Part shown: piece after piece, positions 1-22,657 of the stretch
Numbering within the stretch: position 1 is the stretch's first letter
How the letters are laid out: each line of letters starts with the position of its first letter
Virus record (IMG/VR): IMGVR_UViG_3300020045_005634
Location: 1-35,081 of that record
Reading direction: 5' to 3' (one strand)
From: a virus
Lineage: Duplodnaviria; Caudoviricetes
DNA: 35,081 nt
The notes under the pieces: generated by a model
The model's database searches: none
What the model was told of the DNA's origin: nothing
Seen by the model: only the letters and a program-made list of their open reading frames with translations
Made by a program: the position numbers and the translations under genes

Positions 1-2
1 AC

Positions 3-755
3 ACGAGTCTGGGGCGAGAGCACGACCATAGGGGTAACTTCAAACAAGTCATAGGGGGGCGGGTACTACACGTTACGCACGTAAAGGAGTACTTACTTGA
101 CCAGATGATCCGCGACCTTAGGGGTGGAGGGAATTATTATGATGTGGCTACGAGGGCAGCTGGTTACCCCCACCTAGTAGGGAAATATCGGGGTGAGTTG
201 TTCTTCTCCAAGGATGAGGAGGCATTGGTAGCCAAGACCATATATAAGTTCAAGGACAAGTTCAAGGTGCTTATCAACCTGTCGGGCTCCTCCCCACACA
301 AAGCATTTGTGCAGGCCAAGGAAGTCATTGACCGCATCATGGATAGATACCCAGATGCCCAAGTATTCACCACGGGGGATAAGCTATCAGAAGGCTTGGA
401 TAGCAAGAGATTTGGGGTCATCAGGCTCTCCAACAAGATGCCCTTCCGCCAAGTCCTCCTCATGGCAAAGTACATGAACTGCGTGATTGGAACTGAGTCT
501 GGCATGATGTGTGGGGCAAGTTGTCATGGGGTGCCTACCATCCAGCTTATGACCGCCGCCAGCCTCAAGAACCACACCCAGTATGCAGACAACAACTATA
601 GTTTGCAGTCACCCGCCCGATGCTCCCCTTGCCACAAGAATCCCTATGATTACTGGGGCTGTCCCACCAAGGATAACTACCCATTGTGCGTATTCTTCGA
701 TGTAGACCGCATCATGGAACAAGTTGAGAAGATTCATGGCCTACATTCAGTGTAG
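3..755 (+). CDS. Glycosyltransferase family 9-like protein (GT-B fold), 5' partial
   Basis: Frame is open from the window edge (first ATG 105); motifs INLSGSSPHK, VIGTESGMMCGASCHGVPTIQL and C-terminal CSPCH..C..C; paralog of 7888-8883. Confidence 0.8.
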   Translation, partial: TSLGREHDHRGNFKQVIGGRVLHVTHVKEYLLDQMIRDLRGGGNYYDVATRAAGYPHLVGKYRGELFFSKDEEALVAKTIYKFKDKFKVLINLSGSSPHKAFVQAKEVIDRIMDRYPDAQVFTTGDKLSEGLDSKRFGVIRLSNKMPFRQVLLMAKYMNCVIGTESGMMCGASCHGVPTIQLMTAASLKNHTQYADNNYSLQSPARCSPCHKNPYDYWGCPTKDNYPLCVFFDVDRIMEQVEKIHGLHSV

Positions 756-1551
756 AGAGCTACAGAAGCTCAGTATGCGGCAGAAGCAAGCCTGCCCCCT
801 CTGTGGCCAACTCCAAACCATCATGATGAGGGGCAAGGTGAGGGACTTAGAGGACAAGACCATCAACGTGGTGGGCGACCGTGGCTACTCATTCTGCAAC
901 TGTCGCAACATATTCTTCACCGATTGGAAGAACATAGACCTCAATATCTATGATGAGGTTTATAGCGAGGCGGAGGGTGGGGATGAAGGCGACAAGAACA
1001 TGCGCCTCATGGAGGTTGAGAAGCAATGGCAGGTGGTGCAACGCTATGCGCCCAAAGCCAAGAGCCTCCTAAACATCGGGGACTATGAGGACACCTTCCT
1101 CGACTACCTAAAGCTCAACAACTTCACCAAAATGGCACTGACCACCATCGACATTATCCCACGTCAGTCGCGCCACAGACTAATAACTGGCAACTTTGAA
1201 CACCACGAATTTGCTGGGGAGAAGTTCGACATCATCTGGATGTCGCATTTCATGGAGCATACCAAGAGCCCGAAGGATGCGCTAATCAAGGCCAAGAGCC
1301 TGATGAATCCTGGCGGCATCATCTTCAACGCCATGCCCGATACCCACCATATCAACTGGTCTGACCCTCTCTCTTGGTACTGGATGGTGCAAGAACACCA
1401 CACCCTCTGGAACATGTATGACTGGGTGAGCTTTGCAAAAGAGGAGTGCGGTCTAGATTGTATCTATGGCAACATCAGTACCGATGTGCTAGAGATTGGA
1501 AGCGGCCACCGTTGGATTAACGAAGCGAGGACAATATTCAAACAGGCATAG
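736..1551 (+). CDS. Class I SAM methyltransferase-fold protein with N-terminal Cys cluster
   Basis: CPLC...CNC; FDIIWMSHFMEH; LMNPGGIIF; EHHTLW. Motif I is atypical (LLNIGDYED). ATG 736 preferred over TTG 724. Confidence 0.75.
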   Translation: MAYIQCRELQKLSMRQKQACPLCGQLQTIMMRGKVRDLEDKTINVVGDRGYSFCNCRNIFFTDWKNIDLNIYDEVYSEAEGGDEGDKNMRLMEVEKQWQVVQRYAPKAKSLLNIGDYEDTFLDYLKLNNFTKMALTTIDIIPRQSRHRLITGNFEHHEFAGEKFDIIWMSHFMEHTKSPKDALIKAKSLMNPGGIIFNAMPDTHHINWSDPLSWYWMVQEHHTLWNMYDWVSFAKEECGLDCIYGNISTDVLEIGSGHRWINEARTIFKQA

Positions 1552-2315
1552 TGATACTACATTACATCAAGGATGATTTGACCAAGGCTTGTGTGCAGTC
1601 CATCAGGGATAATACTCAAGCTGGAAGCTACCACATCTATGTGGTGGATAATAACTCACCCACCCCGACTACAATTCAATCCGACTCAGACCTCACCGTC
1701 ATAAGGAATACATCTAGGTACTCCACAAGTGGGATGAACTTTGGTTTCCACCATGCACTGTATATCTCTGGGCGAGACCATGACTACATAGTCAACCTCG
1801 ACAACGACACCCTAGTCCACAAAGACTGGTTGGAACCCTTGGTCAGGGAGATGGAAGAACACCCACTCACTGGTATCTGTGGGGGCAAGCAGTGGAACAA
1901 GGAAGGCACAGAATACCACTCCGTGGGTGCCGATATGTCAGGCTACATCTATACCAATAGCCCAACGGAGCGCACCGAGGTCAACTGGCTACAAGGTAGC
2001 TTCCACATGTACCGAGCCAAGATGATGAGGATGATTGGGCTACAGGACACCCGTTATCAAGACTACTGCTCAGACTCCGACTACTGCATCCATGCGATTG
2101 ACCGTGGGTGGGATGTGGTATTCGTACCTGATAGCTCAATCACCCACTTCGGTGGAACCTCCTACCGCGAGTACCCCGTTGACCGCGCCGATGACTTCGG
2201 TGCATTCAAAGCAAAGTGGTTTGGCACAAAGTTCAATAGCCTAGCCAATGTACTCCCCATCAACAGCCAAGAACGTCTATACGGCCAAGTAACCTACAAG
2301 GAGTCGCGCCGATGA
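1551..2315 (+). CDS. Glycosyltransferase family 2 (GT-A fold)
   Basis: VVDNNS, LDND (DxD-like), GLQDTRY, SDSDYC, SITHFGG; the start may lie a few codons upstream. Confidence 0.85.
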   Translation: MILHYIKDDLTKACVQSIRDNTQAGSYHIYVVDNNSPTPTTIQSDSDLTVIRNTSRYSTSGMNFGFHHALYISGRDHDYIVNLDNDTLVHKDWLEPLVREMEEHPLTGICGGKQWNKEGTEYHSVGADMSGYIYTNSPTERTEVNWLQGSFHMYRAKMMRMIGLQDTRYQDYCSDSDYCIHAIDRGWDVVFVPDSSITHFGGTSYREYPVDRADDFGAFKAKWFGTKFNSLANVLPINSQERLYGQVTYKESRR

Positions 2316-3511
2316 AAGAGTGTTTAGTGTGCCATAACCCCATATCCCCATTCATGTCATTCGGCAAACAGCCAATTGCCAATGGGTTCCTTACCCCCGA
2401 ACAATTCAACGATGAATACTTCTACGAAATGGAGGTGGCCTTCTGCCAAATCTGCTTCATGGTGCAGCTAGTCAACCAACCCAGCCCATCACAGATGTTC
2501 CATGAGAACTATGCGTTCTACTCCTCAACCTCCAAAGGCATGGCTAGGCACTTTGAACACTTCGCCAATGATGTTATCAGGATGTACTCCCCTTCCTTCG
2601 TTGTGGAGATAGGGAGCAATGACGGCATCATGCTCAAGCACATTGCCAATCAGGACATTCGCCACCTTGGAGTGGAGCCCTCAGAGAACGTAGCGGCCAT
2701 GGCAACGGAGCAGGGAGTCAACAGTATCTCCCAGTTCTTCTCAGAGTCATTAGCAGACAAGATAGTAGATGAGAATGGGCAGGCCGATGTGATTCTCTCT
2801 GCCAACGTGATGGCCCACATATCCGACATCCATGAGGTGATGAGGGGGGTGAAGAAGTTGCTAAAGCCTGATGGCGTCCTCATCTTTGAAGACCCCTACC
2901 TTGGCGACATACTATCGAAGGTTGCCTACGACCAAATCTACGATGAACACGCCTTCTACTTCTCCCTGTCCTCCATAATCTTCCTCATGGGTCTCTACGA
3001 CATGGAGGTTATTGATGTATGGCATCAGGATGTGCATGGTGGTTCTATGCGTTACACGGTGGCGCATAAGGGTCGATTCACACCCAATGAATGTGTAACA
3101 AGGTTGTTACAACAGGAATCCTCCAATGGGCTTAAGGAATCGTCCACCTACGACACCTTCAGGTCTAATGTAGAGCAATCCCGCGACATCCTTGTGGACA
3201 CCCTTCACTCCATCCGCGCTAAGGGTGGGAGGATTGTGGGCTATGCGGCTACCGCAAAGTCTGCCACAGTTCTCAACTACTGCGACATTGGTGCTGACCT
3301 AATCGACTACATCTGCGATACCACACCCATTAAGCAGGGAAAGTGTAGCCCTGGGGCACATATCCCCGTTCGCCCCTATCAAGACTTCAAAGACAACCCT
3401 CCAGACTACGCCATCCTCTTCGCATGGAACCATGCCAAGGAAATCATGGAGAAGGAGAGTGGATTCATGGGGCAGTGGATATTCTATGTGCCCGAGGTGA
3501 GGGTAGAATGA
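2312..3511 (+). CDS. NDP-hexose C3-methyltransferase, TcaB9/KijD1-like
   Basis: Zn ligands CLVC and CQIC; VEIGSNDG; FEDPYLGD..DQIYDEH; VHGGSMRY; GYAATAKS; DTTPIKQG; LFAWNHAKEI. Confidence 0.9.
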   Translation: MKECLVCHNPISPFMSFGKQPIANGFLTPEQFNDEYFYEMEVAFCQICFMVQLVNQPSPSQMFHENYAFYSSTSKGMARHFEHFANDVIRMYSPSFVVEIGSNDGIMLKHIANQDIRHLGVEPSENVAAMATEQGVNSISQFFSESLADKIVDENGQADVILSANVMAHISDIHEVMRGVKKLLKPDGVLIFEDPYLGDILSKVAYDQIYDEHAFYFSLSSIIFLMGLYDMEVIDVWHQDVHGGSMRYTVAHKGRFTPNECVTRLLQQESSNGLKESSTYDTFRSNVEQSRDILVDTLHSIRAKGGRIVGYAATAKSATVLNYCDIGADLIDYICDTTPIKQGKCSPGAHIPVRPYQDFKDNPPDYAILFAWNHAKEIMEKESGFMGQWIFYVPEVRVE

Positions 3512-4521
3512 CGCCAGTTGCTAACCCCCTAGCGTCATATCTTGAGCATAAGGCAGAGATAGATAAGGCTGTCTTAGGCGTGCTAGCCAGCGGGTCTTAT
3601 ATCCTAGGCGAACAGGTTAAAGCCTTTGAGAAGGGCTTTGCCAAGTATCTTGGGGTGAAACATGTCATTGGTGTAGCTAGTGGAACCGATGCCCTTCACC
3701 TTGGTATGAGGGCACTAGGCATAGGCCATGGGGATGAGGTCATAACGGTGAGTCATACCGCCGTAGCCACAGTCGCCGCAATCGCCATGACTGGCGCAAC
3801 CCCAGTGTTGATTGACATAGAACCCGACACCTTCACCATAGACCCAACAAAGATAGAACAAGCCATCACCAAGCGCACGAAGGCCATACTCCCAGTCCAT
3901 CTCTACGGTAATCCAGCCAACATGGAAGCTATCAACTGGATTTCCAAGAACCGCAACCTCATGGTCATTGAGGATTGCGCTCAAGCCACAGGTGGCAAGT
4001 ATAAAGGCAAACGCCTTGGCTCCATAGGGAACATTGGTTGCTTCTCCTTCTACCCCACCAAGAACCTTGGGTGCTTTGGGGATGGTGGAGCCATCTCTAC
4101 CAACAACCACAAGGTTGCCAAGAAGCTCAGGCTCTTGCGCCAGTACGGTTGGGAGAAGCGTTACATAAGCTCCATCCATGGATTCAACTCTCGCCTTGAT
4201 GAGATACAGGCGGCAGTGCTTAACGTGAAGCTCAAGTACCTCGATAGAGACAACAAGCGTAGGGCAGACGTAGCCCAATACTACGGTAAGCTCAACAAGG
4301 ATTCCGTCTACCACCTATATGTCACAAGGAAGGCCGACAGGTCAAGATACATGAAATACATGGAGACCCTTGGCATCCAAACCTCCATCCACTACCCCGT
4401 ACCTATACATCTCCAACCCGCCTACAAGTCTCTCGCAAGGGTCTCTGGCTCCATGAGCAATACAGAGTTGGCCGCTAAACAGGTAGTCTCACTACCTATG
4501 TACCCAGGTGCCTATGAATAA
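3508..4521 (+). CDS. DegT/DnrJ/EryC1/StrS PLP-dependent sugar aminotransferase (FdtB/QdtB-like)
   Basis: SGTDAL, PVHLYG, EDCAQA, SFYPTKNLG (PLP lysine), GDGG, NSRLDEIQAA; ATG 3508 overlaps the upstream stop (ATGA). Confidence 0.93.
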   Translation: MTPVANPLASYLEHKAEIDKAVLGVLASGSYILGEQVKAFEKGFAKYLGVKHVIGVASGTDALHLGMRALGIGHGDEVITVSHTAVATVAAIAMTGATPVLIDIEPDTFTIDPTKIEQAITKRTKAILPVHLYGNPANMEAINWISKNRNLMVIEDCAQATGGKYKGKRLGSIGNIGCFSFYPTKNLGCFGDGGAISTNNHKVAKKLRLLRQYGWEKRYISSIHGFNSRLDEIQAAVLNVKLKYLDRDNKRRADVAQYYGKLNKDSVYHLYVTRKADRSRYMKYMETLGIQTSIHYPVPIHLQPAYKSLARVSGSMSNTELAAKQVVSLPMYPGAYE

Positions 4522-4900
4522 TGTGAAGCTGTATGACATTAAGAGTCTGGATGAGGAGAATGGGAGTCTAGCGTTCATCGAGACACCATTCGCTGTGAAC
4601 AGGATGTTTTATGTCTATGGGGTGCGTACAGGTGACATCCGTGGGAAGCACGCACATAAGTCGTGTAAGCAACTGTTGGTGTGTATCAAAGGTGCGGTCA
4701 ATGTAGTCTGTGATGATGGACAGGCGCGAACCATGTACACATTGAACTCTCCCCTTCAAGGTCTCTACATCCCTCCGCTCATCTGGGCGGAGCAATACTA
4801 CCACTCACCCGACAGCATGTTGGTGGCCCTAGCCAGCCACAAGTATGACGAGAGCGACTACATCAGAGACTATGAACTCTACAGGGAGACTGTGCTTTGA
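4514..4900 (+). CDS. FdtA/QdtA-type sugar 3,4-ketoisomerase (cupin, WxcM-like)
   Basis: NGSLAFIE, PFAVNRMFY, RGKHAHK (catalytic His pair), GLYIPPLIW, YDESDYIRDY. Confidence 0.92.
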   Translation: MNNVKLYDIKSLDEENGSLAFIETPFAVNRMFYVYGVRTGDIRGKHAHKSCKQLLVCIKGAVNVVCDDGQARTMYTLNSPLQGLYIPPLIWAEQYYHSPDSMLVALASHKYDESDYIRDYELYRETVL

Positions 4901-5580
4901 AAATCCTGATGACAGGCGGCACTGGGCTCCTCGGTCAAGAGATACTCAAGCTCGACCCATCCATTGAGGCTCCGCCCCGCTGGAAGATGGACATAACCTA
5001 CTATGAGGCCATAGAGCGTGAGCTTTACACCTCCAAGCCCGATACCGTCCTCCACCTTGCCGCAGAGACCGACTGCCTGATGCACAACAGCAAGCCAGAC
5101 CTTGGTATCAAGGCCAACATAATTGGCACTGCCAACATGGTGCTGGTCTGTATGCAGTTTGGTATTAGACTGGTCTACATCTCCACCGACTATGTATATC
5201 AGGGTTCTGGACCCCACAAGGAGGATGAGCCCTTGCGCCCTCCCTACAACTTCGGCTGGTCTAAGCTTGGTGGCGAGTGCAGTGTGATTACCTACACGAA
5301 CTCCCTGATACTTCGGTTGTCCTTTGGCCCACGCCCATTCCCTTGGCCCAAGGTCTATGAGGGTCAGACAAACTCCAAGTTATATGTAGACGAGATGGCA
5401 AAGCTCGTATTAGCCGCTACCAAGTCCACCTCCATAGGCATCATGAATCTTGGTGGAAAATCAAATACACTTGAAGAATATGCAAAGAGGACTAAGCCAG
5501 AGATTACCACCATTCCTTGCCCTGATTGGGTACCTAAGGACACCTCGCTCGACCTAACCCGTATGGAGACAGAGATATGA
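4897..5580 (+). CDS. RmlD-like NDP-4-keto-6-deoxyhexose reductase (short SDR)
   Basis: TGGTGLLG, HLAAETD, YISTDYVY; the usual YxxxK reads FGWSK (YNFGWSK). Confidence 0.82.
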   Translation: MKILMTGGTGLLGQEILKLDPSIEAPPRWKMDITYYEAIERELYTSKPDTVLHLAAETDCLMHNSKPDLGIKANIIGTANMVLVCMQFGIRLVYISTDYVYQGSGPHKEDEPLRPPYNFGWSKLGGECSVITYTNSLILRLSFGPRPFPWPKVYEGQTNSKLYVDEMAKLVLAATKSTSIGIMNLGGKSNTLEEYAKRTKPEITTIPCPDWVPKDTSLDLTRMETEI

Positions 5581-6470
5581 AGATTGTGATAACAGGTGCG
5601 CTCGGTCATGTGGGTTCCAAGCTAATCCGAGGGTTAGACCACGAACTAGTCCTCATCGACAACTTCAATACACAAGCCTACCCGTCCCTCTTCAACCTGA
5701 AGGCCAACCATAAGTTCATCCAAGCCGACATCCTTGATATGGACTTGGTAAACACATTCAAGGGTGCTGATGTAGTTATCCACCTAGCTGCCATTGCCGA
5801 CCCAGAGAACAGTCTGAAGCAGAAGGAGGAAGTCTGGAGGGTCAACTACACTGGCACTGAGAATGTAGCCCGTGCCTGCATGAATCTCTCCATCCCCATG
5901 ATATTCGTATCCACCACCAGCGTCTATGGGGTTCAGGAGGAAGAGGTAGATGAGACCTGCACAGTCCTCAAGCCCCAAACCCCCTACGCCGAATACAAGA
6001 TAAAGGCGGAGGAGTTGCTCAAAGAGCTGGGTACAAGTGGCTTAAGGTTCATCACCTGTCGCCTCGGAACCATATTTGGCCCAACCCCAGGTATGCGCTT
6101 CCACACTGCAGTAAACCGCTTCTGCTTCCAATCGGCCATGGGTCAGCCCATCACAGTCTGGAAGACCGCCCTCAATCAAAACCGCCCATACCTTGCGATA
6201 GAGGATTTGGTAAAGGCTATGAAATTCATCATAGACAATAAGGTGTATACCAACGAGATATACAATGTGGTCACTTTAAATACCACCGTTGGGCACATCA
6301 TAGACATCATCAAGGAAGTAATCCCCGACCTCTCCATCAACTATGTGGACTCTCCCATTATGAGCCAGTTGTCATACACCATCAGTAATAAGAAGTTCAG
6401 AGACCTTGGCTTTGAGTTTGAGGGCAATATGCCCAAGGGCGTTAAGGCCACATTGAGGATGCTGAAATGA
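5577..6470 (+). CDS. NAD-dependent nucleotide-sugar epimerase/dehydratase (extended SDR)
   Basis: TGALGHVG, HLAAI, STTSVYG, YAEYK, RLGTIFG..MRFHTAVN. Confidence 0.88.
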   Translation: MKIVITGALGHVGSKLIRGLDHELVLIDNFNTQAYPSLFNLKANHKFIQADILDMDLVNTFKGADVVIHLAAIADPENSLKQKEEVWRVNYTGTENVARACMNLSIPMIFVSTTSVYGVQEEEVDETCTVLKPQTPYAEYKIKAEELLKELGTSGLRFITCRLGTIFGPTPGMRFHTAVNRFCFQSAMGQPITVWKTALNQNRPYLAIEDLVKAMKFIIDNKVYTNEIYNVVTLNTTVGHIIDIIKEVIPDLSINYVDSPIMSQLSYTISNKKFRDLGFEFEGNMPKGVKATLRMLK

Positions 6471-7249
6471 ATGTCTGTGTAGTCATCCCCATGTACGGCA
6501 AGTCTGAGTACACCGACAAGTGTGTTGAGTACACCATGAAGAATGCGGGTGTGCCTGCTGACATCCTCGTAGTCGATGATGGTTCGCCAAAGCCATATAC
6601 AACCAAAGAGAATGTAACAGTCCTGCGGATTGAGAAGAACTCAGGCTTCACCAATGCAGTCAATCAAGGCATCCTCTGGGCTCTCAAGCGCGACTACGAC
6701 CATGTATTACTGCTCAACAACGACACCGAGCCTGAGAATGACTTCCTCAAGCACCTCGTAGATTCCATGGATGACCCCACCGTGGGTATCTCTTGCTCTG
6801 TGCGCCGTCACCCCAAGAAGAAGGGAGAGTCCATAGAACTATGCGGCTCTGACCTCATCCGAGGCTTCCAATACTTCACCGAGGAATCCAAGCTACCCAA
6901 AGACCCCATCCCTTGCAACTGGGTACCCCTATGCTCAGGCTTACTCAGGGTCTCCATGATTAGGGAGATAGGCTTGTTGGACAAGCGTATGCGCAACCAC
7001 TGTAGCGATACCGAGTATTGCTTCAGAGCCAAGTTCGCCGAGTGGAAGGTGATGCTAGTACCCAAGTCAATTGTGGTCCACCACCTATCCGTTACCACCA
7101 CAGCCAACGGTGTCCTTGTTGATGACGACCAACGCCTTATGCTTGAGAAGATAGCGGGGCTAGACTACGCCAAGCTAATGACAGCCATGCCACTGGATGG
7201 GGAGAAGAAAACATGGGGAAGGTTAAACTTCGAGGTATACACAAAGTGA
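6467..7249 (+). CDS. Glycosyltransferase family 2 (GT-A fold)
   Basis: VVIPMY, VVDDGS, NSGFTNAVNQG, LLNNDT, GLLDKR, SDTEYC; paralog of 1551-2315. Confidence 0.9.
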   Translation: MNVCVVIPMYGKSEYTDKCVEYTMKNAGVPADILVVDDGSPKPYTTKENVTVLRIEKNSGFTNAVNQGILWALKRDYDHVLLLNNDTEPENDFLKHLVDSMDDPTVGISCSVRRHPKKKGESIELCGSDLIRGFQYFTEESKLPKDPIPCNWVPLCSGLLRVSMIREIGLLDKRMRNHCSDTEYCFRAKFAEWKVMLVPKSIVVHHLSVTTTANGVLVDDDQRLMLEKIAGLDYAKLMTAMPLDGEKKTWGRLNFEVYTK

Positions 7250-7377
7250 ACAAAGACCAAGAGACTATCAAGATGGTTCAGTGCCCGAAGTGTAAGCGGT
7301 ATGGCCTAGAGATAGCCAAAGGCTACCCAAAATGCGTACTTTGCGGGGAGTGGTTTAAGCAACCAACCCATGACTAA
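7246..7377 (+). CDS. 43-aa Zn-ribbon protein (absent from the ORF track)
   Basis: GTG overlaps the GT2 stop (GTGA); [43 protein letters not shown] has two CxxC pairs. Confidence 0.6.
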
Positions 7378-7813
7378 TCTTGCTTGCTCTCCTACAAGAA
7401 CATGGACGACATCTTTTGCTAAGTCTTTTCCAGTCTTTCCTAGACCAAAAAAGCTTAATACAGTCTGTACATTTTATAACTATAAACCCTCTTCTACTTT
7501 TATGATGATTCCAGGTCAAGCCTTCTTTTATAGCATTTGGTCTAGGCTTCTGAACCTTTATCAGTGCTTTAGAACCAAGTGGTCTAATCCACTTCCAATC
7601 GTCCTGTCTGCTTTTATCTTCCTTGTAGTGGCACTTTACATGGTCAGCTCTGGTCATAACAACAAGATTACTTATCCTATTGTCATCCTTAATCCCATTC
7701 TTATGATGAACAATCTCATATGGTTTAAGTTTCCTTTTGAGATGATTCTGCATCACCAACCGATGTTCAAATTCTTGCTTACCATTGACATAGAACTTCT
7801 TGTATTGTCGCAC
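7355..7813 (-). CDS. HNH homing endonuclease (HNH_3 type), antisense to the operon
   Basis: [28 protein letters not shown]; C-terminal CxxC pairs; AAGGAG RBS before GTG; visibly AT-richer than neighbours. Confidence 0.88.
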
Positions 7814-7837
7814 TGGTTCTCCTTAGTTAATATGTAT

Positions 7838-7869
7838 ATTATAATGCACCAGTTCTCAACGCCTGTCAA
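7838..7869 (-). promoter_or_regulatory. Sigma70-like promoter for the HNH gene
   Basis: TTGACA at 7869-7864; CATTAT at 17-nt spacing and an overlapping TATAAT (7843-7838) at 20-nt spacing. Confidence 0.55.
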
Positions 7870-7887
7870 GGCAGAAAGGATTCCCCA

Positions 7888-8883
7888 GTGAAGGTATTGA
7901 TATGGCGCACTGGGGCGTATTAGGGCGACTGCCTTATTACGACCCCTCTAATCAGACATTTATCTAACCAAGGTCATCAGATATTCTATGTGGGCGGTGA
8001 GCGCGGTGAGGAAGTCCTCAAGAACAACCCACATGTGTTCAAGATGATACCCCATGATAAGAATGTAAAGAATGAGCTATTGGGACAGCACATTGATTGG
8101 CTCAAGCGCAAGTATCACTGTGATAGGGTCATAGACTTGAATGAGTCGGTGGAATGTGCGCTGTCGCAGCATCCTCGCTCGGCTGACTACAAATTGCCCA
8201 AGAATGAGCGGATTGCCAAGTTCAACCGTAACTTCTACGAGTATTGCTTTGAACATTCCAAGGAGCTGTGGGATAGCACCACGGACTTCACCCCTGAGTT
8301 GTTCTTTGACCAGAAAGAGATGGATGAGGCCCGCAAGTACCTCAAGCCCGACTGTTACAACGTCCTAGTCGGTCTCTCTGGCTCTGGCAACAACAAGGCT
8401 TACCCCTGGATGATGGACCTCTGCAACAACATAGGGAAGACCCATCCCAACGTCCACATCATCACCGTGGGAGACATGAAGTGTAAGATATTGGAGGACA
8501 TTGAGACTCCCGACCTCACCAATGTGACCAAGCTCTCTGGTGAGATACCCATGAGGATATCCATGGCTCTTACCTCCATGGTCAACCTTGTAATCAGTCC
8601 CGACACTGGCCTCCTCCATGCCGCTGGATGCTACCCCACACCCAAGATAGCCCTCTACGGCCACAACACCCATGAGGTTATCAGCAAACACTTTACCAAC
8701 GTTCACCCCATTCAAGCCGATGAGAAGCTGGCACCCTGTTCCCCATGCCTACTCATGATATATGAGCCCAAGCAACAATGCCCCCTGTCCTACTCCACCA
8801 ACTCCTCCATCTGCATGGCAGACGGCATCCCGCTTCAAACGGTCTATAACAAGTTCGTTGAGGTCTACAATGCTGGACTTTAA
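7888..8883 (+). CDS. Glycosyltransferase family 9-like protein with an in-frame TAG at codon 12 (recoded gene or pseudogene)
   Basis: AGAAAGGA RBS then GTG 7888: MKVLIWRTGAY*GDCLITTPLIRHL, in frame with ORF 7990-8883 (VISPDTGLLHAAG, PKIALYG, CSPC..C..C). Confidence 0.8.
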
Positions 8884-9646
8884 GAAGAAGGTGGACATCA
8901 AACAGGTCGATGAGATTAAGGTTGAGAACTGCCCTGTATGCCATGCCTATGTATGCCATGCCTACCTCATGGTGGATGCCAGCACCCAGAAGAAGTCCAA
9001 GTGGTTCTCCTGTAGCTGTGGGGTGGTGTTCAACAGTACCAAGCCCAGTAAGGTCTACGACATGAAGTATTGGGAGGCTGGAACCAAGCCAGATAAGGGT
9101 AGAGAGGCCGCATTCAAGTACCCCGTGAGGCTCTATGCTCCCCTCATGGAAGAGCTTATATACGGGCGGAGGGTACTCATCGTGGGGCGCCCAAACACCC
9201 ACCAAGAGGATGCCTTGGCCGAGCGGGGCTGGGTACCCACCATCATAGACAAGAACACCGCCTTTGAGACTGGTGGCAACCTCATAGCCTCCGACTTCGA
9301 GCACCACCAGTTCCCCAAGGACATCAAATTCAATTCCATATGGATGTACCATACCCTCGACTGCCTATCCGACCCCATAGGCTCCCTAGCCCTATGCAAA
9401 GACCTGCTTGCGGAAGATGGTATTATAGTATTGATGGGTGCTGATACCGACTTTATCAATACCCGCTCATCTTCCTGCTTCATGCACTGGAAGCAAGATG
9501 AGAACTACATCATGTGGAATAGAAAGTCTCTGACTCGCCACCTAGAAACACTAGGGTTCAATGTAATACTCGCTCGACAAAACTACGAGCATCGTTTCCC
9601 GATGTGGGACGATTATCACATTATCGCCCAAAAAAAGTTTTTCTAG
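8870..9646 (+). CDS. Class I SAM methyltransferase-fold protein with N-terminal Cys cluster
   Basis: CPVC...CSC; FNSIWMYHTLDC; LLAEDGII; paralog of 736-1551; motif I atypical (VLIVGRPNT); ATG 8870 follows GAGG. Confidence 0.72.
   Translation: MLDFKKKVDIKQVDEIKVENCPVCHAYVCHAYLMVDASTQKKSKWFSCSCGVVFNSTKPSKVYDMKYWEAGTKPDKGREAAFKYPVRLYAPLMEELIYGRRVLIVGRPNTHQEDALAERGWVPTIIDKNTAFETGGNLIASDFEHHQFPKDIKFNSIWMYHTLDCLSDPIGSLALCKDLLAEDGIIVLMGADTDFINTRSSSCFMHWKQDENYIMWNRKSLTRHLETLGFNVILARQNYEHRFPMWDDYHIIAQKKFF
8936..8965 (+). repeat. 15-bp tandem duplication (VCHAY-VCHAY)
   Basis: GTATGCCATGCCTAT followed by GTATGCCATGCCTAC. Confidence 0.85.
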
Positions 9647-9655
9647 GAGGTTCCC

Positions 9656-10111
9656 TTGGCAACTAAGACAGTAACCATAGATACTGGTGAGTGGAATTAC
9701 CCCGACATCAGCGGGGCTAAACACTTAGTCACAAACGGTGAGACATTCACCTTCACCCTCACAGACGGCGGCGCATCTGCTGTCACCTACCAGAACGACC
9801 TTGATGGCTCAGTCCTCTGTGATGATGGGAGCCGAGTCACCATTCGCCGCTGGGCAGCAAATGCAACCAATGGCCTTGTGAATGGAAACCTAGCTCGTAC
9901 TTGGGGTCCGACCGCAGATGCCCAGGACGCAACAGCAGTCTATGGCCTTGCGGGAGAGTTCGTAACCTCACACTCCTCCAACAATGTCTACCAGTTCTGG
10001 AAGGCCATAAGCATTACCGTAGACAATGTGGATGCTCCCACCGCCATCTCTGGTACATTTGAAGACCAGTTTGGCAATCGGTTCACCTGGACCACGGTTA
10101 CGGTGAGCTAA
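9656..10111 (+). CDS. Hypothetical protein, probably virion-associated
   Basis: AGGAGG RBS and TTG start; T/G/A/N-rich, beta-strand-like composition; precedes the adaptor gene. Confidence 0.65.
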   Translation: MATKTVTIDTGEWNYPDISGAKHLVTNGETFTFTLTDGGASAVTYQNDLDGSVLCDDGSRVTIRRWAANATNGLVNGNLARTWGPTADAQDATAVYGLAGEFVTSHSSNNVYQFWKAISITVDNVDAPTAISGTFEDQFGNRFTWTTVTVS

Positions 10112-10112
10112 C

Positions 10113-10289
10113 ATGGCAGCATACTCTACGACAGTCAAGTTCATTGAAAACGGTGATGGTAATGCTTTCGCTACGGCAGTAGATGCATATATGGAAACAT
10201 TAGACTCTACTAATGACCCGATTGGAGCTATTACATTCGGATTTAACACTGGCAGCGGTAAGTATTTTGCAATAATTCTCACAACTTAA
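10113..10289 (+). CDS. 58-aa hypothetical protein (absent from the ORF track)
   Basis: MAAYSTTVKFIENGDG...KYFAIILTT fills the gap; its TAA overlaps the next ATG (TAATG). Confidence 0.65.
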   Translation: MAAYSTTVKFIENGDGNAFATAVDAYMETLDSTNDPIGAITFGFNTGSGKYFAIILTT

Positions 10290-11305
10290 TGACAAACGAT
10301 ACCTACAAACGCATACAAGTCAGGGCAATGGCCTTGGTGCAGAACACCAGCACCAGCACGTCCAATGCCAACGACCTCCTCCCCAAGGTCAAGGACTGGT
10401 GTCGTACTCGCTATGACCGCATCCTCCGTGCCTTCCCTTGGGATGAACTGAATCGTAGTTACAACCTGAGTGTCACCGCTGGCACTAGGGACTATGCCCT
10501 GCGCTATGACCTAGAATCCATCATCAAGATGTGGGACACGACCCACGGCTTTGAAATAACGGCCTATGACCTGCGCGACCACATACGATTCAATGCCATC
10601 AACCTTGAGGTATCAGGGAACGTGCAGACAGGTAACCCCGACCAATACATCGACATTGGGTCTAAGTCTTGCTCGGCCCTCATGAGCATCGCAGATAAGG
10701 TACAAGTCTTATCAACCTCTGCCTCTGATGTTAGCCCCGCAGTCATACGCATCACGGGTGAAGTCAGCGGGATGCCAGTGGGTGAGAACATCACCCTGAC
10801 TGGGGTTACTGCGGTAGACTCCTCCAACACGTTTGATGCAGGGAGCGAACTTCAGATTACCGCAGGGTCATCCAGTGCGGTGCTTACCGACCTTGTGGGC
10901 GTTGTCACAGTGCGTGAGAAGACCACCCCTGGCAACATCATTGCCAAACTCGCTCCCAATGAACGCGCTCCCTACTACAAGTGGATACGCATGAGTGTTA
11001 CACCTGCCAGTGCCTTGACCGCACAGGTCTGGTACAAACGCCGCTGGTACCCCCTCACCAACGACAATGATGCCCCCATCATCCCTTGCGCCAATGAAAT
11101 CATTGAGGGTGTGGTGGCAGATGCGCTCTGGGAAGATGGACAAGAGGCAGCAGCTCAAGCCCAAGATGCCAAGTTCACCAAAGCCGTGACAGAACTCTGG
11201 ATTAGCCGCCGTCCTCGCAACCTCATTAGCCAAATCGTACCTGATGGCGGCGACCCTCAGGCTCGTAACGAACGCAACCTCTACTACCTAGGTGATAGCT
11301 ACTAA
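10289..11305 (+). CDS. Putative head-tail adaptor / tail tubular protein A
   Basis: Adaptor-like layout: N-terminal helices, FPWDEL, LSVTAGTRDYAL, PLTNDNDAPIIP, C-terminal helices; directly upstream of the nozzle-like gene. Confidence 0.65.
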   Translation: MTNDTYKRIQVRAMALVQNTSTSTSNANDLLPKVKDWCRTRYDRILRAFPWDELNRSYNLSVTAGTRDYALRYDLESIIKMWDTTHGFEITAYDLRDHIRFNAINLEVSGNVQTGNPDQYIDIGSKSCSALMSIADKVQVLSTSASDVSPAVIRITGEVSGMPVGENITLTGVTAVDSSNTFDAGSELQITAGSSSAVLTDLVGVVTVREKTTPGNIIAKLAPNERAPYYKWIRMSVTPASALTAQVWYKRRWYPLTNDNDAPIIPCANEIIEGVVADALWEDGQEAAAQAQDAKFTKAVTELWISRRPRNLISQIVPDGGDPQARNERNLYYLGDSY

Positions 11306-13476
11306 TGATACTGACTAGCAAACGGGCTAAGGTCAGTCAGATAGACTTCACAGGCGGTCAGAACTCAGGGGATGACCCGTCCACAGTCAAGGCCAACCAA
11401 GCCTCCCTCATTGAAAATAGCTACATCACCCAGGTTGGTAAGTTGGAACAGCGTGAGGGTCAAACGCTTCTGGGTGATAATCCTGCAACCCTCATATCCA
11501 AGTGGACATTCGATGCCTCAACAGCCGTAGATGACAAGGAAGACAATGATGGGACAGCAACCTCAGTCACATACGTTGATGGGAAATTCGGCAAGTGCGC
11601 CAGCTTCAATGGGACTACATCTTCCATCTCCGTCCCTGCCGATACCACTATTGATGCGGTGTCTATGGGAGCCTTTCGTGTCTCAGCCTGGGTCTATGTA
11701 GATAGCGATGGGGAGAATGATGAGGGGCGCATTGTTGACAAGATGGCGGGAACCGATGCTGGGTATCGCTTCTTTGTGAAGTCCCAATCTGGCAGCACCG
11801 TCATCCTAGACTTCGAGGTGGGTGACACAGGAACCAACACAAGGGTTGTGACATCCACTACCATGTCCACGGGAGCATGGCACAAGGTTGATGCCATCTA
11901 CAATACCGACCGCTCAGGGGACATCTACCTTGATGGAGCCATCTGCTCCTACTCTACCGATACCACGGGAGCTACAGCTACCGCTGATGACTCAGCCAAC
12001 GTCCTCTACTTTGGCAACAGGGCCGCTGGCGACCGCTGCTTTGATGGCGAGATAGATGACATCCGCATCTATGATGGCTCATTCACTGCAGATGAGCTTG
12101 AAATTAAGGCTATCCTTGGGCTTACCACGTACTCAGTGGGAACGACATACAATAAACCAATCCGCGCCATAGACACCAAGATACAGGAGCTTAACTCCAA
12201 CTTCCTCACTTGGGATAACATCACGGGGCTTACCACCCTGACAGCGGGGCTCACCACCAACTTTGTTCAAGGTCTAGACAAGCTATTCATCCTGAACGGT
12301 ACAGACAATGTGTTCAGCATAGACTCATCTCTCACCGTCACAGACGAGGGCAACACCAACACCGACTTCCCCAAGACCACATTTGGAGAGTGGACGGCCA
12401 ACAACCGCATGTTTGCCAGTGGGAGCCTGACACAATCCCTGCGTGATATTGTCTACTTCTCAGATGCCCTAGACCCTCAGACATGGAACCGCACCACAAA
12501 CTTGTTCAAGGTACGCTCAGGTGGAGGTGGTAAGGTCACCTGGCTAAAGATGTTCAAGGAGTTTGAGCTTATCATCTACAAGAATGACAGTATATTTGTT
12601 CTCAACATGGACGGCGCAACACCCCTTACTGACTGGGACCCGAAGCCCCTATCCATCGTGGTGGGATGCCCAGCAGGGCGCACAGTCTGTGACATTGGGA
12701 ATGACCAGATATACCTGGCGAATGATGGGGTACGCCTCCTATCCCGCACTACATTTGACAAGTTGAGGGTTGGGGTTATCTCCGACCCAATCCGCGACAT
12801 CATAGAGGCTATCAATCAGGATGCCATACAGAACTCCGTGGGGTTCTTTGAGAATGGCCTATACCTCTTGGGCGTACCAGTTGGCACCTCCACCATCCCT
12901 AACCGCTGGATGATTTGGGACAGCTTTTCTGCCACTCGAAATGGGGAGCCAAATGGCTCATGGACCACAATCCCCGTAGATGTCTGGAATATGAGCTGCA
13001 TGACAAGCTTTGGATTTGGAGACAACCTCAAGACTATCATTGGGGGAGACGCTAGAGCCTTATCCCTATGCTACAAAGTCCTATCTGGCAACACCGACAA
13101 TGGAGCCACAGTCACTCAATCTATCATCACCAAGGAACAGGACTTCGGTGAACCATTTGCACGCAAGATATTTGACCCCGTGCGATTCACAGCAGAATCT
13201 GGTTCAGATGGTAACTACAACTACTCCATAGACATCGACCACACTGGATTCAACTCCATCGCATCCACTGGCACCCTCTCTGGTTCTCTCCAAACCCCTT
13301 TCGTCACACCCGCAACCACTGGTGGTTCTCAGGCCAATAACAGCTCATACCGCAGCAAGTTCGCTGGCAAGGGCAGTGCCGCAAGACTACAGATAACCAA
13401 TTCGATATACAACAAGCGACCCACTTTCATTGAGTATGAACTCTTTGCAAGGGGTTACCAAGGGAGAATCAGCTAA
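11305..13476 (+). CDS. Putative tail nozzle / tail tubular protein B with an inserted LamG domain
   Basis: DFTGGQN start, VYFSDALDP..W, LIIYKNDSIF, VGCPAGRTV, ISDPI; LamG motifs (GKFGKCASFNG, WHKV, FDGEIDDIRIYD) at about 11491-12100. Confidence 0.72.
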   Translation: MILTSKRAKVSQIDFTGGQNSGDDPSTVKANQASLIENSYITQVGKLEQREGQTLLGDNPATLISKWTFDASTAVDDKEDNDGTATSVTYVDGKFGKCASFNGTTSSISVPADTTIDAVSMGAFRVSAWVYVDSDGENDEGRIVDKMAGTDAGYRFFVKSQSGSTVILDFEVGDTGTNTRVVTSTTMSTGAWHKVDAIYNTDRSGDIYLDGAICSYSTDTTGATATADDSANVLYFGNRAAGDRCFDGEIDDIRIYDGSFTADELEIKAILGLTTYSVGTTYNKPIRAIDTKIQELNSNFLTWDNITGLTTLTAGLTTNFVQGLDKLFILNGTDNVFSIDSSLTVTDEGNTNTDFPKTTFGEWTANNRMFASGSLTQSLRDIVYFSDALDPQTWNRTTNLFKVRSGGGGKVTWLKMFKEFELIIYKNDSIFVLNMDGATPLTDWDPKPLSIVVGCPAGRTVCDIGNDQIYLANDGVRLLSRTTFDKLRVGVISDPIRDIIEAINQDAIQNSVGFFENGLYLLGVPVGTSTIPNRWMIWDSFSATRNGEPNGSWTTIPVDVWNMSCMTSFGFGDNLKTIIGGDARALSLCYKVLSGNTDNGATVTQSIITKEQDFGEPFARKIFDPVRFTAESGSDGNYNYSIDIDHTGFNSIASTGTLSGSLQTPFVTPATTGGSQANNSSYRSKFAGKGSAARLQITNSIYNKRPTFIEYELFARGYQGRIS

Positions 13477-21884: not shown

Positions 21885-21976
21885 AGAGTCCACATCCCGT
21901 GACCTGTGCTGTACATGTGGTTCTCAAGCTCGTAGTCATGTAAGAACACCTCTCCACAAGCATAGCAAGTCATCAT
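21881..21976 (-). CDS. 31-aa stand-alone C2H2 zinc finger
   Basis: MMTCYACGEVFLHDYELENHMYSTGHGMWTL fits C-x2-C-x3-F-x5-L-x2-H-x5-H; coupled by ATGA and GTGA overlaps. Confidence 0.62.
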   Translation of the reverse strand: MMTCYACGEVFLHDYELENHMYSTGHGMWTL

Positions 21977-22165
21977 ATCAGTGAGCTATGTCCTTTCCAC
22001 TTGGGTACATTGTTGTTGGGCTTATCATCCTCTATGGGCTTTGGCTTCTTCTTAGCCAACCCGTGGGTCCAGATGGGCTTGCGCTTATCCAACTTGAGGA
22101 GATAGTCTGGTATCTTAACGCTGGTTGATAGCTTCTCATCCTTTCCTAAGTCAAGCTCGTATACT
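21973..22165 (-). CDS. Basic hypothetical protein; its 5' end is probably lost at the junction
   Basis: K-rich ORF coupled to the zinc-finger gene; its apparent start (22185) lies in the GC-rich segment. Confidence 0.4.
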
Positions 22166-22657
22166 GACCGCCTCCGCTTCTTCATTGGCCTCGATATTGT
22201 TAGCGGCGGCGTTTCGCTGTGCCTCTGCGGCTAGGTCAGCAATGCGTTGTGCTTCCTCTCGCGCGGCTCTGGCGATAGCCTCTTGTTCGTCGGCCAATTT
22301 CTTGAGCCAAGGCGCTAGGGTAGCCTTCAGCGCCTTGATGGCGAGAGCCGTCTTTCCGGGGTTTTTGTTTGTGATTGGCGCAATGAGCGGATTGTATCGC
22401 GCCTGAACCTCGGCCTTTCCGTCGTCAAACGGCTTGGCTTCGTTCTTGCGTTCGTTTTCCGCGCCGGTCTCAGCTTCCTGAATCTGGCGCATGAGGGTTT
22501 GGACGGCCTCCGCTTGCTCTGGCGTCTGGATAGGCTCGCCGTTAGCGTATCTTGCAATAGTACCACGGTGCATCCCGAGCGTGTCGGCCAGTTGAGTTTT
22601 CCAGCCATGACGCCCGTAAAGGCGCTGACCGGCGAGAATGAAGTCATCTGCTTTCAT
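22151..22657 (-). CDS. HTH (Cro/XRE-like) domain fused to a truncated coiled-coil phage protein
   Basis: GWKTQLADTLGMHRGTIARYANG is HTH-like; it continues into EAKPFDDGKAEVQARY and an A/E-rich coiled coil that stops at the junction. Confidence 0.55.
   Translation of the reverse strand: MKADDFILAGQRLYGRHGWKTQLADTLGMHRGTIARYANGEPIQTPEQAEAVQTLMRQIQEAETGAENERKNEAKPFDDGKAEVQARYNPLIAPITNKNPGKTALAIKALKATLAPWLKKLADEQEAIARAAREEAQRIADLAAEAQRNAAANNIEANEEAEAVSIRA

What the first reader, a model, noticed from the sequence alone, without database searches (positions are those of the whole stretch)
3..11305. Large glycan synthesis and transfer cluster inside a phage virion operon: candidate virion glycosylation system
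Seen: 11 sugar-related genes (4 GT, 2 MTase-fold, C-MTase, aminotransferase, ketoisomerase, 2 SDR) are mostly translationally coupled. They run into the adaptor, nozzle and ejection genes with a 9-nt gap and no terminator, and share their codon style. No flippase, polymerase, membrane protein or replication gene is present. Known: some actinobacteriophages glycosylate their virions with GTs encoded near structural genes, and giant eukaryotic viruses make their own rare sugars. Inference: this podovirus makes its own rare NDP-sugar and builds a methylated glycan on virion proteins, more elaborate than the few-GT phage systems I know. The Ser/Thr-rich proteins downstream are plausible acceptors.
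Basis: partly seen in the sequence, partly recalled or inferred. Interest (0 to 1): 0.88.

Follow-up and report, generated by a model that had tools for sequence, protein, structure and literature searches.

The report
Phage capsid-slot sugar-coating gene cassette
An uncultured short-tailed phage carries eleven sugar-making, sugar-transferring and methyltransferase-like genes just before its neck genes, and its relatives keep a swappable version of this cassette between their capsid and neck genes, so these phages likely coat their own particles with a rare methylated sugar, although the target is unproven and one key gene in this copy is interrupted by a stop codon.

Summary
The 11 genes are real, mostly overlapping and phage-like in codon use. 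The window lacks the head genes, but relatives show the cassette between an HK97-fold major capsid gene and the SU10-type adaptor. A GT9 glycosyltransferase fills that slot in 31 of 32 and 54 of 62 scorable capsid-anchored viral contigs; close GT9 relatives turned up in no LPS locus and in no cultured phage. The 3' core (GT2-GT9-MTase fold) co-diverges with the capsid, while the 5' part is swapped (8 layouts in 18 close genomes). This window has the largest layout seen, with five sugar-pathway enzymes predicted to make a 3-amino-3-C-methyl deoxysugar from a host precursor. Best reading: cytoplasmic virion glycosylation (0.65); host-envelope modification remains open (0.2). Corrections: an antisense HNH gene interrupts the cluster, the core GT9 has an extra in-frame TAG, the 9-nt gap precedes a 151-aa gene rather than the adaptor, capsid Ser/Thr richness is not diagnostic, and the contig looks like a chimera of two phages at about 22,170. 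It works like Corndog/Che8 virion glycosylation but uses other enzymes. The scan noted this slot before on other DNA, including a six-gene relative; ten literature searches found no description.

The parts
3..755 (+). GT9a glycosyltransferase, 5'-truncated by the contig end; variable member of the cassette
   Evidence: Pfam GT9 E 0.007 on the fragment; 76% to full-length L018 GT9a, which passes the Pfam cut-off; separate clade from GT9b
736..1551 (+). MTa: Zn-binding + class I methyltransferase fold, partner of GT9a; SAM motif atypical here and deleted in many relatives
   Evidence: Methyltransf_23 E 2e-13; no PDB hit; motif alignment
1551..2315 (+). GT2a glycosyltransferase, first gene of the six-gene expansion
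   Evidence: Glycos_transf_2 E 9e-15; found in L002/L018 and L006/L017
2312..3511 (+). Sugar 3-C-methyltransferase, TcaB9/EvaC type
   Evidence: PDB 5t6b E 8.5e-124, TcaB9 E 1.5e-118, mycarose enzyme E 8e-78; homologues named EvaC
3508..4521 (+). PLP sugar aminotransferase (DegT family), closest to C3 aminotransferases
   Evidence: Pfam E 4e-112; 7b0d E 5e-110, QdtB E 1e-87
4508..4900 (+). FdtA-type 3,4-ketoisomerase
   Evidence: Pfam E 1.6e-43; 4zu4 E 2.6e-32, FdtA 2pa7 E 6e-28, QdtA E 1e-22
4897..5580 (+). RmlD-like 4-ketoreductase
   Evidence: RmlD_sub_bind E 1e-25; RmlD structures E 6e-14; below NCBIfam cut-off
5577..6470 (+). NAD-dependent SDR epimerase/dehydrogenase
   Evidence: Epimerase E 3.5e-40; best PDB 6vo6 E 2.7e-24; below all NCBIfam cut-offs including RmlB
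6467..7249 (+). GT2b glycosyltransferase, conserved core
   Evidence: Glycos_transf_2 E 1.6e-15; rhamnosyltransferase model E 2e-15, below cut-off; distances track the capsid, rho 0.85
7246..7377 (+). 43-aa Zn-finger ORF; similar sequence sits between GT2b and GT9b in L027
   Evidence: DNA alignment; no family hit
7355..7813 (-). HNH homing endonuclease inserted antisense just upstream of GT9b; AT-rich; absent from the two relatives aligned
   Evidence: HNH_3 E 3.8e-10; GC3 0.36; about 500-nt insertion against L027 and L047
7888..8883 (+). GT9b glycosyltransferase, core gene with four invariant Cys; interrupted here by an extra in-frame TAG at 7921-7923, two codons before the invariant Asp
   Evidence: Pfam GT9 36.1 bits over cut-off 22; fold WaaF Z 17.8, TibC Z 14.2; alignments; 117 of 120 homologues lack the extra codon
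8870..9646 (+). MTb: Zn-binding + methyltransferase fold, constant partner of GT9b; SAM motif degenerate in the close family, intact in distant members
   Evidence: Methyltransf_23 E 3e-6; motif alignment; rho 0.89 with GT9b
9656..10111 (+). 151-aa Thr-rich protein (S+T 0.22), conserved before the adaptor; candidate virion protein
   Evidence: conserved in relatives; no family or Atlas hit
10113..10289 (+). 58-aa Thr-rich protein, present in some relatives
10289..11305 (+). SU10-type head-tail adaptor (right boundary of the slot)
   Evidence: SU10_adaptor E 5e-10; 16 related loci at 51-93%
11305..13476 (+). Nozzle/head-closure protein with a LamG insertion
   Evidence: LamG E 2e-19; phrog_5107 'amidase' E 1e-7; the gene in this position in Vibrio podophages is labelled amidase or head-closure

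Best explanation
This is a conserved but swappable cassette that sits between the major capsid and adaptor genes of a large clade of uncultured short-tailed phages, and it likely builds a methylated glycan on virion proteins in the host cytoplasm late in infection. Shown: gene content, overlap coupling, position and conservation. Inferred steps: (1) the cassette is co-transcribed with head and neck genes; (2) the five pathway enzymes act on host dTDP-4-keto-6-deoxyglucose: FdtA gives the 3-keto sugar, DegT the 3-amino sugar, the SDR re-oxidises C4, the TcaB9-type enzyme adds a C3 methyl, and the RmlD-like enzyme reduces C4, giving a 3-amino-3-C-methyl-6-deoxyhexose and using all five genes; (3) the vertically inherited GT9b primes Ser/Thr of a head protein (the capsid protein or the roughly 140-aa S/T-rich protein encoded after it), without a lipid carrier; (4) GT2b, GT2a and GT9a extend or cap the glycan, GT9a probably with the phage-made sugar; (5) O-methyltransferases cap it, while the often degenerate MTase folds fixed behind each GT9 may be non-catalytic partners; (6) exchange of the 5' genes changes the particle's glycan type. 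In this genome GT9b is interrupted, so this copy may be inactive or mis-assembled.
For: Order scaffold-MCP-small gene-cassette-adaptor in all 8 loci that reach the head genes (HK97 fold). Capsid-anchored searches, blind to sugar genes: GT9 in the slot in 31, absent in 1, contig too short in 10 of 42; 54, 8 and 18 of 80. GT9-anchored: capsid gene upstream in 69 of 78, the other 9 end within 2.1 kb. Unfiltered metagenome contigs: longest 47,158 nt, structural marker in 37 of 40 loci of 5 kb or more. The one GTDB hit has GT9 right behind the same capsid type with a different portal and scaffold. Capsid tree: 87 of 99 with GT9, 3 changes, the GT9-less slots forming two nested clades plus outgroups. 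GT9b, MTb and GT2b track the capsid (rho 0.84-0.86), GT9a does not (0.52); 8 layouts in 18 close genomes. L018's GT9a groups with L045's, another DegT-bearing cassette. No membrane segments. GT9 fold includes the protein O-heptosyltransferase TibC (Z 14.2), and four C-terminal Cys are invariant as in TibC's iron finger. Precedent: Corndog's O-methyltransferase and GTs lie among head genes and its virion proteins are reported glycosylated.
Against: No glycan, acceptor or expression is shown. The best folds are LPS-type GT9s (Z 17.8-17.9, against 14.2 for TibC). The capsid's Thr-rich hairpin is no richer in GT9 phages than in GT9-less ones (p 0.31). The S/T-rich small gene is missing from 24 of 26 other GT9 loci and has weak look-alikes in GT9-less phages. 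One complete relative has an integrase and repressors, so lysogenic host conversion is possible. One distant slot holds an O-antigen-ligase-like TPR protein (L139). No nucleotidyltransferase or clear 4,6-dehydratase is present. GT9b is interrupted in this genome. Loci are related and partly overlap between searches, so counts are not independent.
Confidence: 0.65

Rival explanations
1. The enzymes modify the host envelope (LPS core, O-glycan or S-layer glycan), either in lysogens or late in infection, to block superinfection or stop progeny binding to debris of the lysed cell.
For: GT9's best structural matches act on LPS core; G001 is temperate; large sugar clusters of cyanophages are read this way; the C-methyltransferase's next relatives (58-61%) are cellular enzymes of Nitrospirota, Desulfobacterales and others; L139 has a Wzy_C/TPR protein in the slot.
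Against: Fixed position between capsid and adaptor across a clade whose capsids differ down to about 31% identity; overlap coupling into neck genes and phage-like codon use; no flippase, polymerase or membrane segment in the window; GT9b scores far below the WaaC/WaaF cut-offs (30 vs 134.6); no close GT9b relative in a cellular LPS locus.
Confidence: 0.2
2. The enzymes put a methylated sugar on phage DNA as protection against restriction or CRISPR.
For: Phage glycosyltransferases that modify DNA are known (cited in PMC12619734); the window's left part is CpG-poor (o/e about 0.55).
Against: No thymidylate-synthase-family base hydroxymethylase in 4 of 4 complete relatives, control rang in 10 of 14 genomes; none among annotated ORFs of G001 and G002; position in the virion operon; several complete relatives have no CpG deficit (0.93-1.09).
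Confidence: 0.05
3. The cassette glycosylates a cytoplasmic host protein (pilin, flagellin or another receptor subunit) or makes a small glycoside, rather than decorating the particle.
For: The C-methyltransferase and aminotransferase are closest to antibiotic-sugar enzymes; one slot carries a PF01973 domain, recalled as the Maf flagellin-glycosyltransferase family.
Against: It does not explain why the core GT9 follows the capsid gene even when portal, scaffold and adaptor types change.
Confidence: 0.1
4. Not exclusive of the others: whatever the family does, this genome's copy is inactive (HNH insertion beside GT9b and an extra TAG before the invariant Asp), or the TAG is an assembly error in a low-quality, chimeric contig.
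For: Extra TAG codon and window-specific HNH; the only downstream start (GTG 7990) would drop the invariant Asp; the first 40 codons of GT9a depart strongly from L018; chimeric join.
Against: The other ten genes are full length relative to L018 and L017 and keep their overlaps; a clean three-base insertion is not a typical consensus error (general knowledge).
Confidence: 0.4

Closest known systems
Mycobacteriophage virion glycosylation: Corndog gp35-gp38, Che8, Myrna (PMC4351075 and PMC12363180, passages read; Freeman et al. 2023 seen only as cited)
   Same: Phage-encoded soluble glycosyltransferases plus a methyltransferase; in Corndog placed among head genes (between portal and protease) and absent from particles.
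   Different: Here a podovirus clade; GT9-centred; slot is capsid-to-adaptor; includes a five-enzyme rare-sugar pathway; cassette varies between near-identical capsids; GT9b has no match among 50,697 phage records; glycan not shown.
GT9 LPS heptosyltransferases WaaC and WaaF
   Same: GT-B fold (Z 17.8 to WaaF, 14.4 to WaaC); N-terminal Gly-Asp motif invariant in relatives.
   Different: 13-17% identity; far below NCBIfam cut-offs; no waa context; four invariant Cys; fixed MTase-fold partner.
BAHT protein O-heptosyltransferases TibC/AAH (PMC4358343, passages read)
   Same: GT9-like fold (Z 14.2, rmsd 3.8 A over 240 residues); four conserved Cys in the C-lobe; shows that this fold can glycosylate proteins in the cytoplasm.
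   Different: No N-terminal beta-barrel; Cys spacing differs (x2-x10-x10 in GT9b against x2-x15-x11); 9% identity; no autotransporter.
'LPS' or cell-wall gene clusters of T4-like cyanophages P-SSM2, S-SCSM1, S-SCSM2R (PMC7824862, PMC12801897, passages read)
   Same: Many glycosyltransferases with epimerases and cupin isomerases in a phage, polymorphic between relatives.
   Different: Those lie in genomes over 200 kb, include sugar kinases and nucleotidyltransferases and are read as host-surface modifiers; here about 9.6 kb of a 44-45 kb genome type, inside the virion operon.
Chlorovirus PBCV-1 and mimivirus capsid/fibril glycosylation (PMC9787589, passages read)
   Same: Virus-encoded nucleotide-sugar enzymes and glycosyltransferases that decorate the particle.
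   Different: Eukaryotic giant viruses, other folds and sugars; no homology tested.
TcaB9/EvaC amino-sugar C3-methylation and FdtA/FdtB 3-amino-sugar pathways
   Same: Close homologues of the C-methyltransferase, ketoisomerase and aminotransferase.
   Different: No 2,3-dehydratase, acyltransferase or nucleotidyltransferase here; the combination would give a different sugar (inference; substrates recalled).

Membership tests
GT9 (Pfam PF01075) | Score over the curated cut-off | tested here: met
   GT9b 36.1 bits against 22; full GT9a of L018 23.2; window GT9a fragment 16.2
GT9 (Pfam PF01075) | GT-B fold closest to WaaC/WaaF | tested here: met
   Top Foldseek and VIA hits 3tov, 1psw, 2h1f; Z 17.9 rmsd 3.5 aligned 248; model lacks the first 34 residues
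GT9 (Pfam PF01075) | Intact N-terminal catalytic Gly-Asp motif in this genome | tested here: not met
   Asp invariant in 28 relatives but preceded by an in-frame TAG in the window
WaaC/WaaF LPS heptosyltransferases | NCBIfam equivalog score | tested here: not met
   30.2 against 134.6 (WaaF) and 20.4 against 185.3 (WaaC)
WaaC/WaaF LPS heptosyltransferases | ADP-heptose donor and Kdo-lipid A acceptor | not testable with these tools
   needs enzyme assay
BAHT (TibC/AAH) | Four-Cys metal finger in the C-lobe | tested here: inconclusive
   Four Cys invariant (119 of 120), spacing differs from TibC, metal unknown
BAHT (TibC/AAH) | N-terminal beta-barrel (TibC residues 1-97) | tested here: not met
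   Full-length relatives are 322-361 aa and begin with the GT-B strand; match covers TibC 132-391
BAHT (TibC/AAH) | Dodecamer, autotransporter substrate | not tested
   no oligomer model run; no autotransporter seen in any locus annotated
Mycobacteriophage-type virion glycosylation | Phage-encoded soluble GTs and methyltransferase within the virion operon | tested here: met
Mycobacteriophage-type virion glycosylation | Glycan covalently on capsid or tail proteins | not testable with these tools
   no isolate, no proteomics
Mycobacteriophage-type virion glycosylation | Homology to Che8 gp110 / Corndog gp38 | tested here: inconclusive
   GT9b has no tblastn match in the phage collection; the two GT2 genes were not searched there
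Gtr-type serotype conversion | Flippase and membrane glucosyltransferase | tested here: not met
   no such Pfam hit and no membrane segment; only a weak GtrB-like PHROG hit on GT2b, E 2e-4
Phage DNA hypermodification | Thymidylate-synthase-family hydroxymethylase | tested here: not met
   0 of 4 complete relatives; control 10 of 14
Phage DNA hypermodification | TET/JBP dioxygenase | tested here: inconclusive
   0 of 4, but the control rang nowhere
Cyanophage 'LPS' clusters | Sugar kinases and nucleotidyltransferases in a jumbo T4-like genome | tested here: not met
   none in the window or L018; relatives are 43-45 kb

The most novel reading that the evidence does not exclude
A large, uncultured podovirus clade carries an ancestral GT9-primed, lipid-carrier-free virion glycosylation pathway whose 5' genes are swapped like O-antigen loci to give 'virion serotypes'; the lineage in this window synthesises its own 3-amino-3-C-methyl deoxysugar, a type known from antibiotics, and displays it on a 45-kb phage's head, with degenerate methyltransferase folds serving as non-catalytic partners of the GT9 enzymes.
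Probability: 0.35. Interest if true: 0.85.

Novelty: new variant of a known kind. Interest (0 to 1): 0.62.

Why it matters
Virion glycosylation is shown for only a few mycobacteriophages and explained there by antibody shielding (as cited). If this cassette does the same, glycosylated particles are the ancestral state of a broad environmental podovirus clade (87 of 99 capsid types sampled), the modification is under diversifying exchange, and small phages spend about a fifth of a 44-45 kb genome on it, which calls for another selective force (grazers, host surface defences, proteases, adsorption). It would also mean that genes now labelled 'ADP-heptose:LPS heptosyltransferase' in viromes are mis-read as host-modifying genes, and it offers soluble protein glycosyltransferases and a five-enzyme rare-sugar route that can be tested in E. 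coli.

Tried and rejected
Sequencing runs for window 1-10,000: none was listed, so the TAG, the contig end and the join could not be checked on reads. Complex prediction of GT9b with MTb: no answer (scores 0.42, 0.01, 0.01; mark 0.32). Ser/Thr enrichment of the capsid hairpin 133-163 as a marker of glycosylation: rejected (87 vs 12 capsids, p 0.31; one search had L209 mislabelled and gave p 0.16); whole-capsid S/T differs (0.157 vs 0.143, p 0.006) but rows are related. N-x-S/T sequons are not conserved in the close family's hairpin. ESM Atlas: no usable hit for the 151-aa protein, only unnamed viral clusters for the 140-aa one. Host search: no capsid relative in GTDB; one distant GT9 hit, 25% identity, on a 5.5-kb phage-like MAG contig, too distant to name the host. 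TET/JBP search uninformative. The small-gene row used a wrong-frame query and was dropped. CpG deficit as a sign of DNA modification: rejected, not shared by complete relatives. PDB sequence search for MTa: none. Freeman et al. 2023 is not held; its text and supplements, which may survey such genes, were not seen. Literature searches that found no description of this cassette.


Full report
OBSERVATION. All eight junctions from GT9a to GT2b overlap by 1-20 nt, GT9b and MTb overlap by 14 nt, and 9 nt separate MTb from a 151-aa gene; a 58-aa gene and then the SU10-type adaptor follow with 1-nt gap and overlap. Codon use is nearer the structural genes (RSCU r 0.645) than the right part of the window (0.217); no protein has a convincing membrane segment. 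The consensus scan lists no + strand terminator in 1-11,305 but finds no more sites than shuffles. Three things were missed. An antisense HNH endonuclease (7355-7813) is inserted at the end of a small Zn-finger ORF just before GT9b and is absent from the two relatives aligned. GT9b begins at GTG 7888 and carries an in-frame TAG at 7921-7923, one codon more than relatives, two codons before an Asp that is invariant in 28 aligned relatives; 117 of 120 database homologues have the motif without it. And the contig looks chimeric: CpG o/e is 0.38-0.78 up to 22,000 and 0.97-1.32 after it, the switch falls near 22,170, the right part has its own tail-spike, endolysin and ejection-like genes on the other strand, its first gene matches Azospirillum and Rhizobium phages, and it hits none of the fetched loci while the control stretch 17,800-21,700 hits 18. 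No sequencing run was listed to check these points.

CONTEXT FROM RELATIVES. The window starts inside GT9a, so the head genes are missing. In all 8 loci that reach far enough, the order is scaffold, major capsid protein, a 132-157-aa S/T-rich gene, cassette, then (where the locus reaches it) the 151-aa gene and adaptor. The capsid assignment rests on PHROG and NCBIfam N4-gp56-type hits (E about 1e-13) and an HK97-type fold. Searches anchored on the capsid alone gave GT9 between capsid and adaptor or contig end in 31, none in 1 and too little sequence in 10 of 42 loci, and 54, 8 and 18 of the best 80 of 484 in a wider, truncated scan; four of those 18 show GT4 genes and two a methyltransferase before the contig ends. 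The two sets share some contigs. Anchored on GT9 (best 80 of 107; 78 new loci tallied), a capsid gene lies upstream in 69, the other 9 ending within 2.1 kb, and an adaptor downstream in 56. Because IMG/VR selects for virion genes, I repeated this in unfiltered metagenome contigs: best 80 of 85, longest contig 47,158 nt, a structural marker in 51 of 80 and in 37 of 40 loci of at least 5 kb; of the three exceptions one is all cassette and two show no LPS genes. The 120 best protein homologues all lie on contigs under 46 kb where a length is given. GTDB gave no capsid relative and one distant GT9, directly behind the same capsid type but with another portal and scaffold. No cultured phage has a GT9b match; the nearest cultured capsids (PTXU04, Bas95, Vibrio podophages, 37-40%) have only small hypothetical genes in the slot. 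On a tree of 99 non-redundant capsids (20 with too little flank and all split genes left out), 87 carry GT9; three changes suffice, and the GT9-less slots form two supported clades nested among GT9 lineages plus two outgroups, which fits one gain and two losses. Pfam finds no sugar genes in those slots. A GT9b profile matches 361 clusters at 50% identity with E under 1e-30; 44 of the best 150 match the fused methyltransferase domain.

ANATOMY OF THE CASSETTE. The minimal form in distant lineages is one methyltransferase-GT9 fusion. In the close family the 3' core GT2b-GT9b-MTb is constant and its distances track the capsid (rho 0.85, 0.86, 0.84; adaptor 0.88), whereas GT9a does not (0.52) (21 loci). 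Eighteen close genomes that I picked show 8 layouts, and capsids 91-94% identical to L018's carry different ones. The slot also takes CmcI, TylF, FkbM and other O-methyltransferases, B12 radical-SAM enzymes, GT4, GT8, acetyltransferases, oxidoreductases and one Wzy_C/TPR protein. The window's layout, with six extra genes, is the largest seen and recurs in L002/L018 and L006/L017; five of the closest C-methyltransferase homologues lie on contigs of the same lengths as close GT9b homologues (10,565, 45,884, 11,849, 27,760, 45,152 nt), which suggests more carriers; next come cellular EvaC-like enzymes at 58-61%. The window's C-methyltransferase is of the TcaB9 type (E 1e-118 to 1e-124), whereas the family's usual one is nearer the mycarose enzyme. 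FdtA and the aminotransferase match C3 pathways, RmlD-like and SDR genes stay below curated cut-offs, and no nucleotidyltransferase is present in L018's complete cassette. L018's GT9a groups (SH-aLRT 99) with that of L045, another cassette with an aminotransferase. MTb's SAM motif is degenerate in the close family and intact further out, and MTa has lost that half in many relatives, yet both are kept.

MECHANISM. Inferred: late, cytoplasmic, stepwise glycosylation of head proteins. Host dTDP-4-keto-6-deoxyglucose would pass through FdtA (3-keto), DegT (3-amino), the SDR (C4 oxidation), the C-methyltransferase and the RmlD-like reductase to a 3-amino-3-C-methyl-6-deoxyhexose; substrates of TcaB9 and the identity of PDB 6vo6 as a C4 dehydrogenase are recalled, not checked. 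GT9b would prime the acceptor, since it is the gene inherited with the capsid; the GT2s and GT9a would extend. The GT9 model matches WaaF-type enzymes best (Z 17.8-17.9) and the protein heptosyltransferase TibC next (Z 14.2, rmsd 3.8, 240 aligned); both GT9s keep four Cys like TibC's iron finger, with other spacing and without its beta-barrel. The fold therefore allows protein or lipid acceptors and does not decide. A terminator-like hairpin follows the small gene in 8 of 26 relatives against 3 of 78 control windows, so the cassette probably shares the lower read-through of neck and tail genes.

RESULTS AGAINST. The capsid's Thr-rich hairpin (residues 133-163) is as rich in GT9-less phages (0.334 vs 0.307, p 0.31). 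The small gene after the capsid forms a 61-member family seen only in GT9 loci, with median S+T 0.24 against 0.18 in 10 GT9-less counterparts, but 24 of 26 other GT9 loci lack it, three GT9-less genes match it weakly, and rows are related. G001 has an integrase and repressors, leaving host conversion possible. DNA modification is unlikely: no thymidylate-synthase family gene in 4 of 4 complete relatives, the TET test being uninformative. This genome's GT9b is interrupted, and its first 40 codons depart from L018.

COMPARISON. It works like mycobacteriophage virion glycosylation: Corndog has an O-methyltransferase and three GTs between portal and protease (PMC4351075, passages), and Che8, Corndog and Myrna are reported to have glycosylated virion proteins (PMC12363180, PMC11256854, PMC12619734, PMC12582341, passages citing Freeman et al. 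2023; the paper itself is not held). It is not shown to be a member, as the glycan is untested and the core enzyme is a GT9 with no match in cultured phages. It is not WaaC/WaaF, not BAHT and not Gtr by the features tested. Larger sugar clusters exist in T4-like cyanophages and are read as host-surface modifiers (PMC7824862, PMC12801897, passages); chloroviruses make their own capsid sugars (PMC9787589, passages). Ten full-text searches of open-access papers found no description of this cassette; subscription papers and supplements were not seen. Earlier notes of this scan report glycosyltransferase cassettes in the same slot on other genomes, one with a six-gene layout; they are unchecked AI notes and are not counted as evidence.

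VERDICT. Real, conserved and undescribed in the papers searched; best read as a new, GT9-based variant of virion glycosylation with an unusually complete rare-sugar pathway (0.65), acceptor unproven, this copy possibly broken. Interest 0.62.

Noticed in passing
window about 22,165-22,185: Probable chimeric join of two phages: CpG o/e jumps from about 0.55 to 1.15; ORF 22151-22708 (-) ends abruptly where ORF 21973-22185 (-) begins; the right part resembles alphaproteobacterial phages (GapR-like, Rad52, GH19 endolysin, tail spike).
   Followed up: partly
window 7355-7813 (-) and 7921-7923: A window-specific HNH gene sits about 75 nt upstream of GT9b, whose conserved N-terminal motif carries an extra TAG; a repair scar from the endonuclease is a possible but untested link.
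   Followed up: partly
L033 4433-4508; L039 6398-6470: A tRNA-Thr(TGT) gene lies directly behind the Thr-rich small gene that follows the capsid gene in 2 of 10 loci scanned.
   Followed up: no
window 736-1551 and 8870-9646; L027 7890-8387: Methyltransferase folds behind each GT9 are kept although the SAM motif is degenerate or half the domain is deleted; fused to GT9 in distant phages.
   Followed up: partly
L144 3185-5367: In a Thermodesulfobacteriota MAG contig the same capsid type is followed directly by a GT9 but preceded by a different portal and scaffold.
   Followed up: partly
L022 6727-7134 (-), in G002: An RmlC-like 3,5-epimerase lies outside the cassette, among early-strand genes of a complete relative.
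   Followed up: no
L018 12984-14460; L005 554-1147: Sulfotransferase genes (with a weak GT2-like neighbour in L018) lie between the 151-aa gene and the adaptor, a possible second tailoring site.
   Followed up: no
L139 2598-4196; L050 7374-8801: An O-antigen-ligase-like Wzy_C/TPR protein and a PF01973-methyltransferase fusion occur in the same slot in single distant phages.
   Followed up: no
L031, L054, L056, L045, L078, L103: Capsid genes split by HNH or LAGLIDADG endonucleases, probably group I introns.
   Followed up: no
window 1-130: The first 40 codons of GT9a differ from L018 far more than the rest (76% overall), as expected of a low-quality contig end.
   Followed up: partly
window 33347-33853 (-): A second HNH endonuclease lies between virion genes of the right-hand phage.
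   Followed up: no
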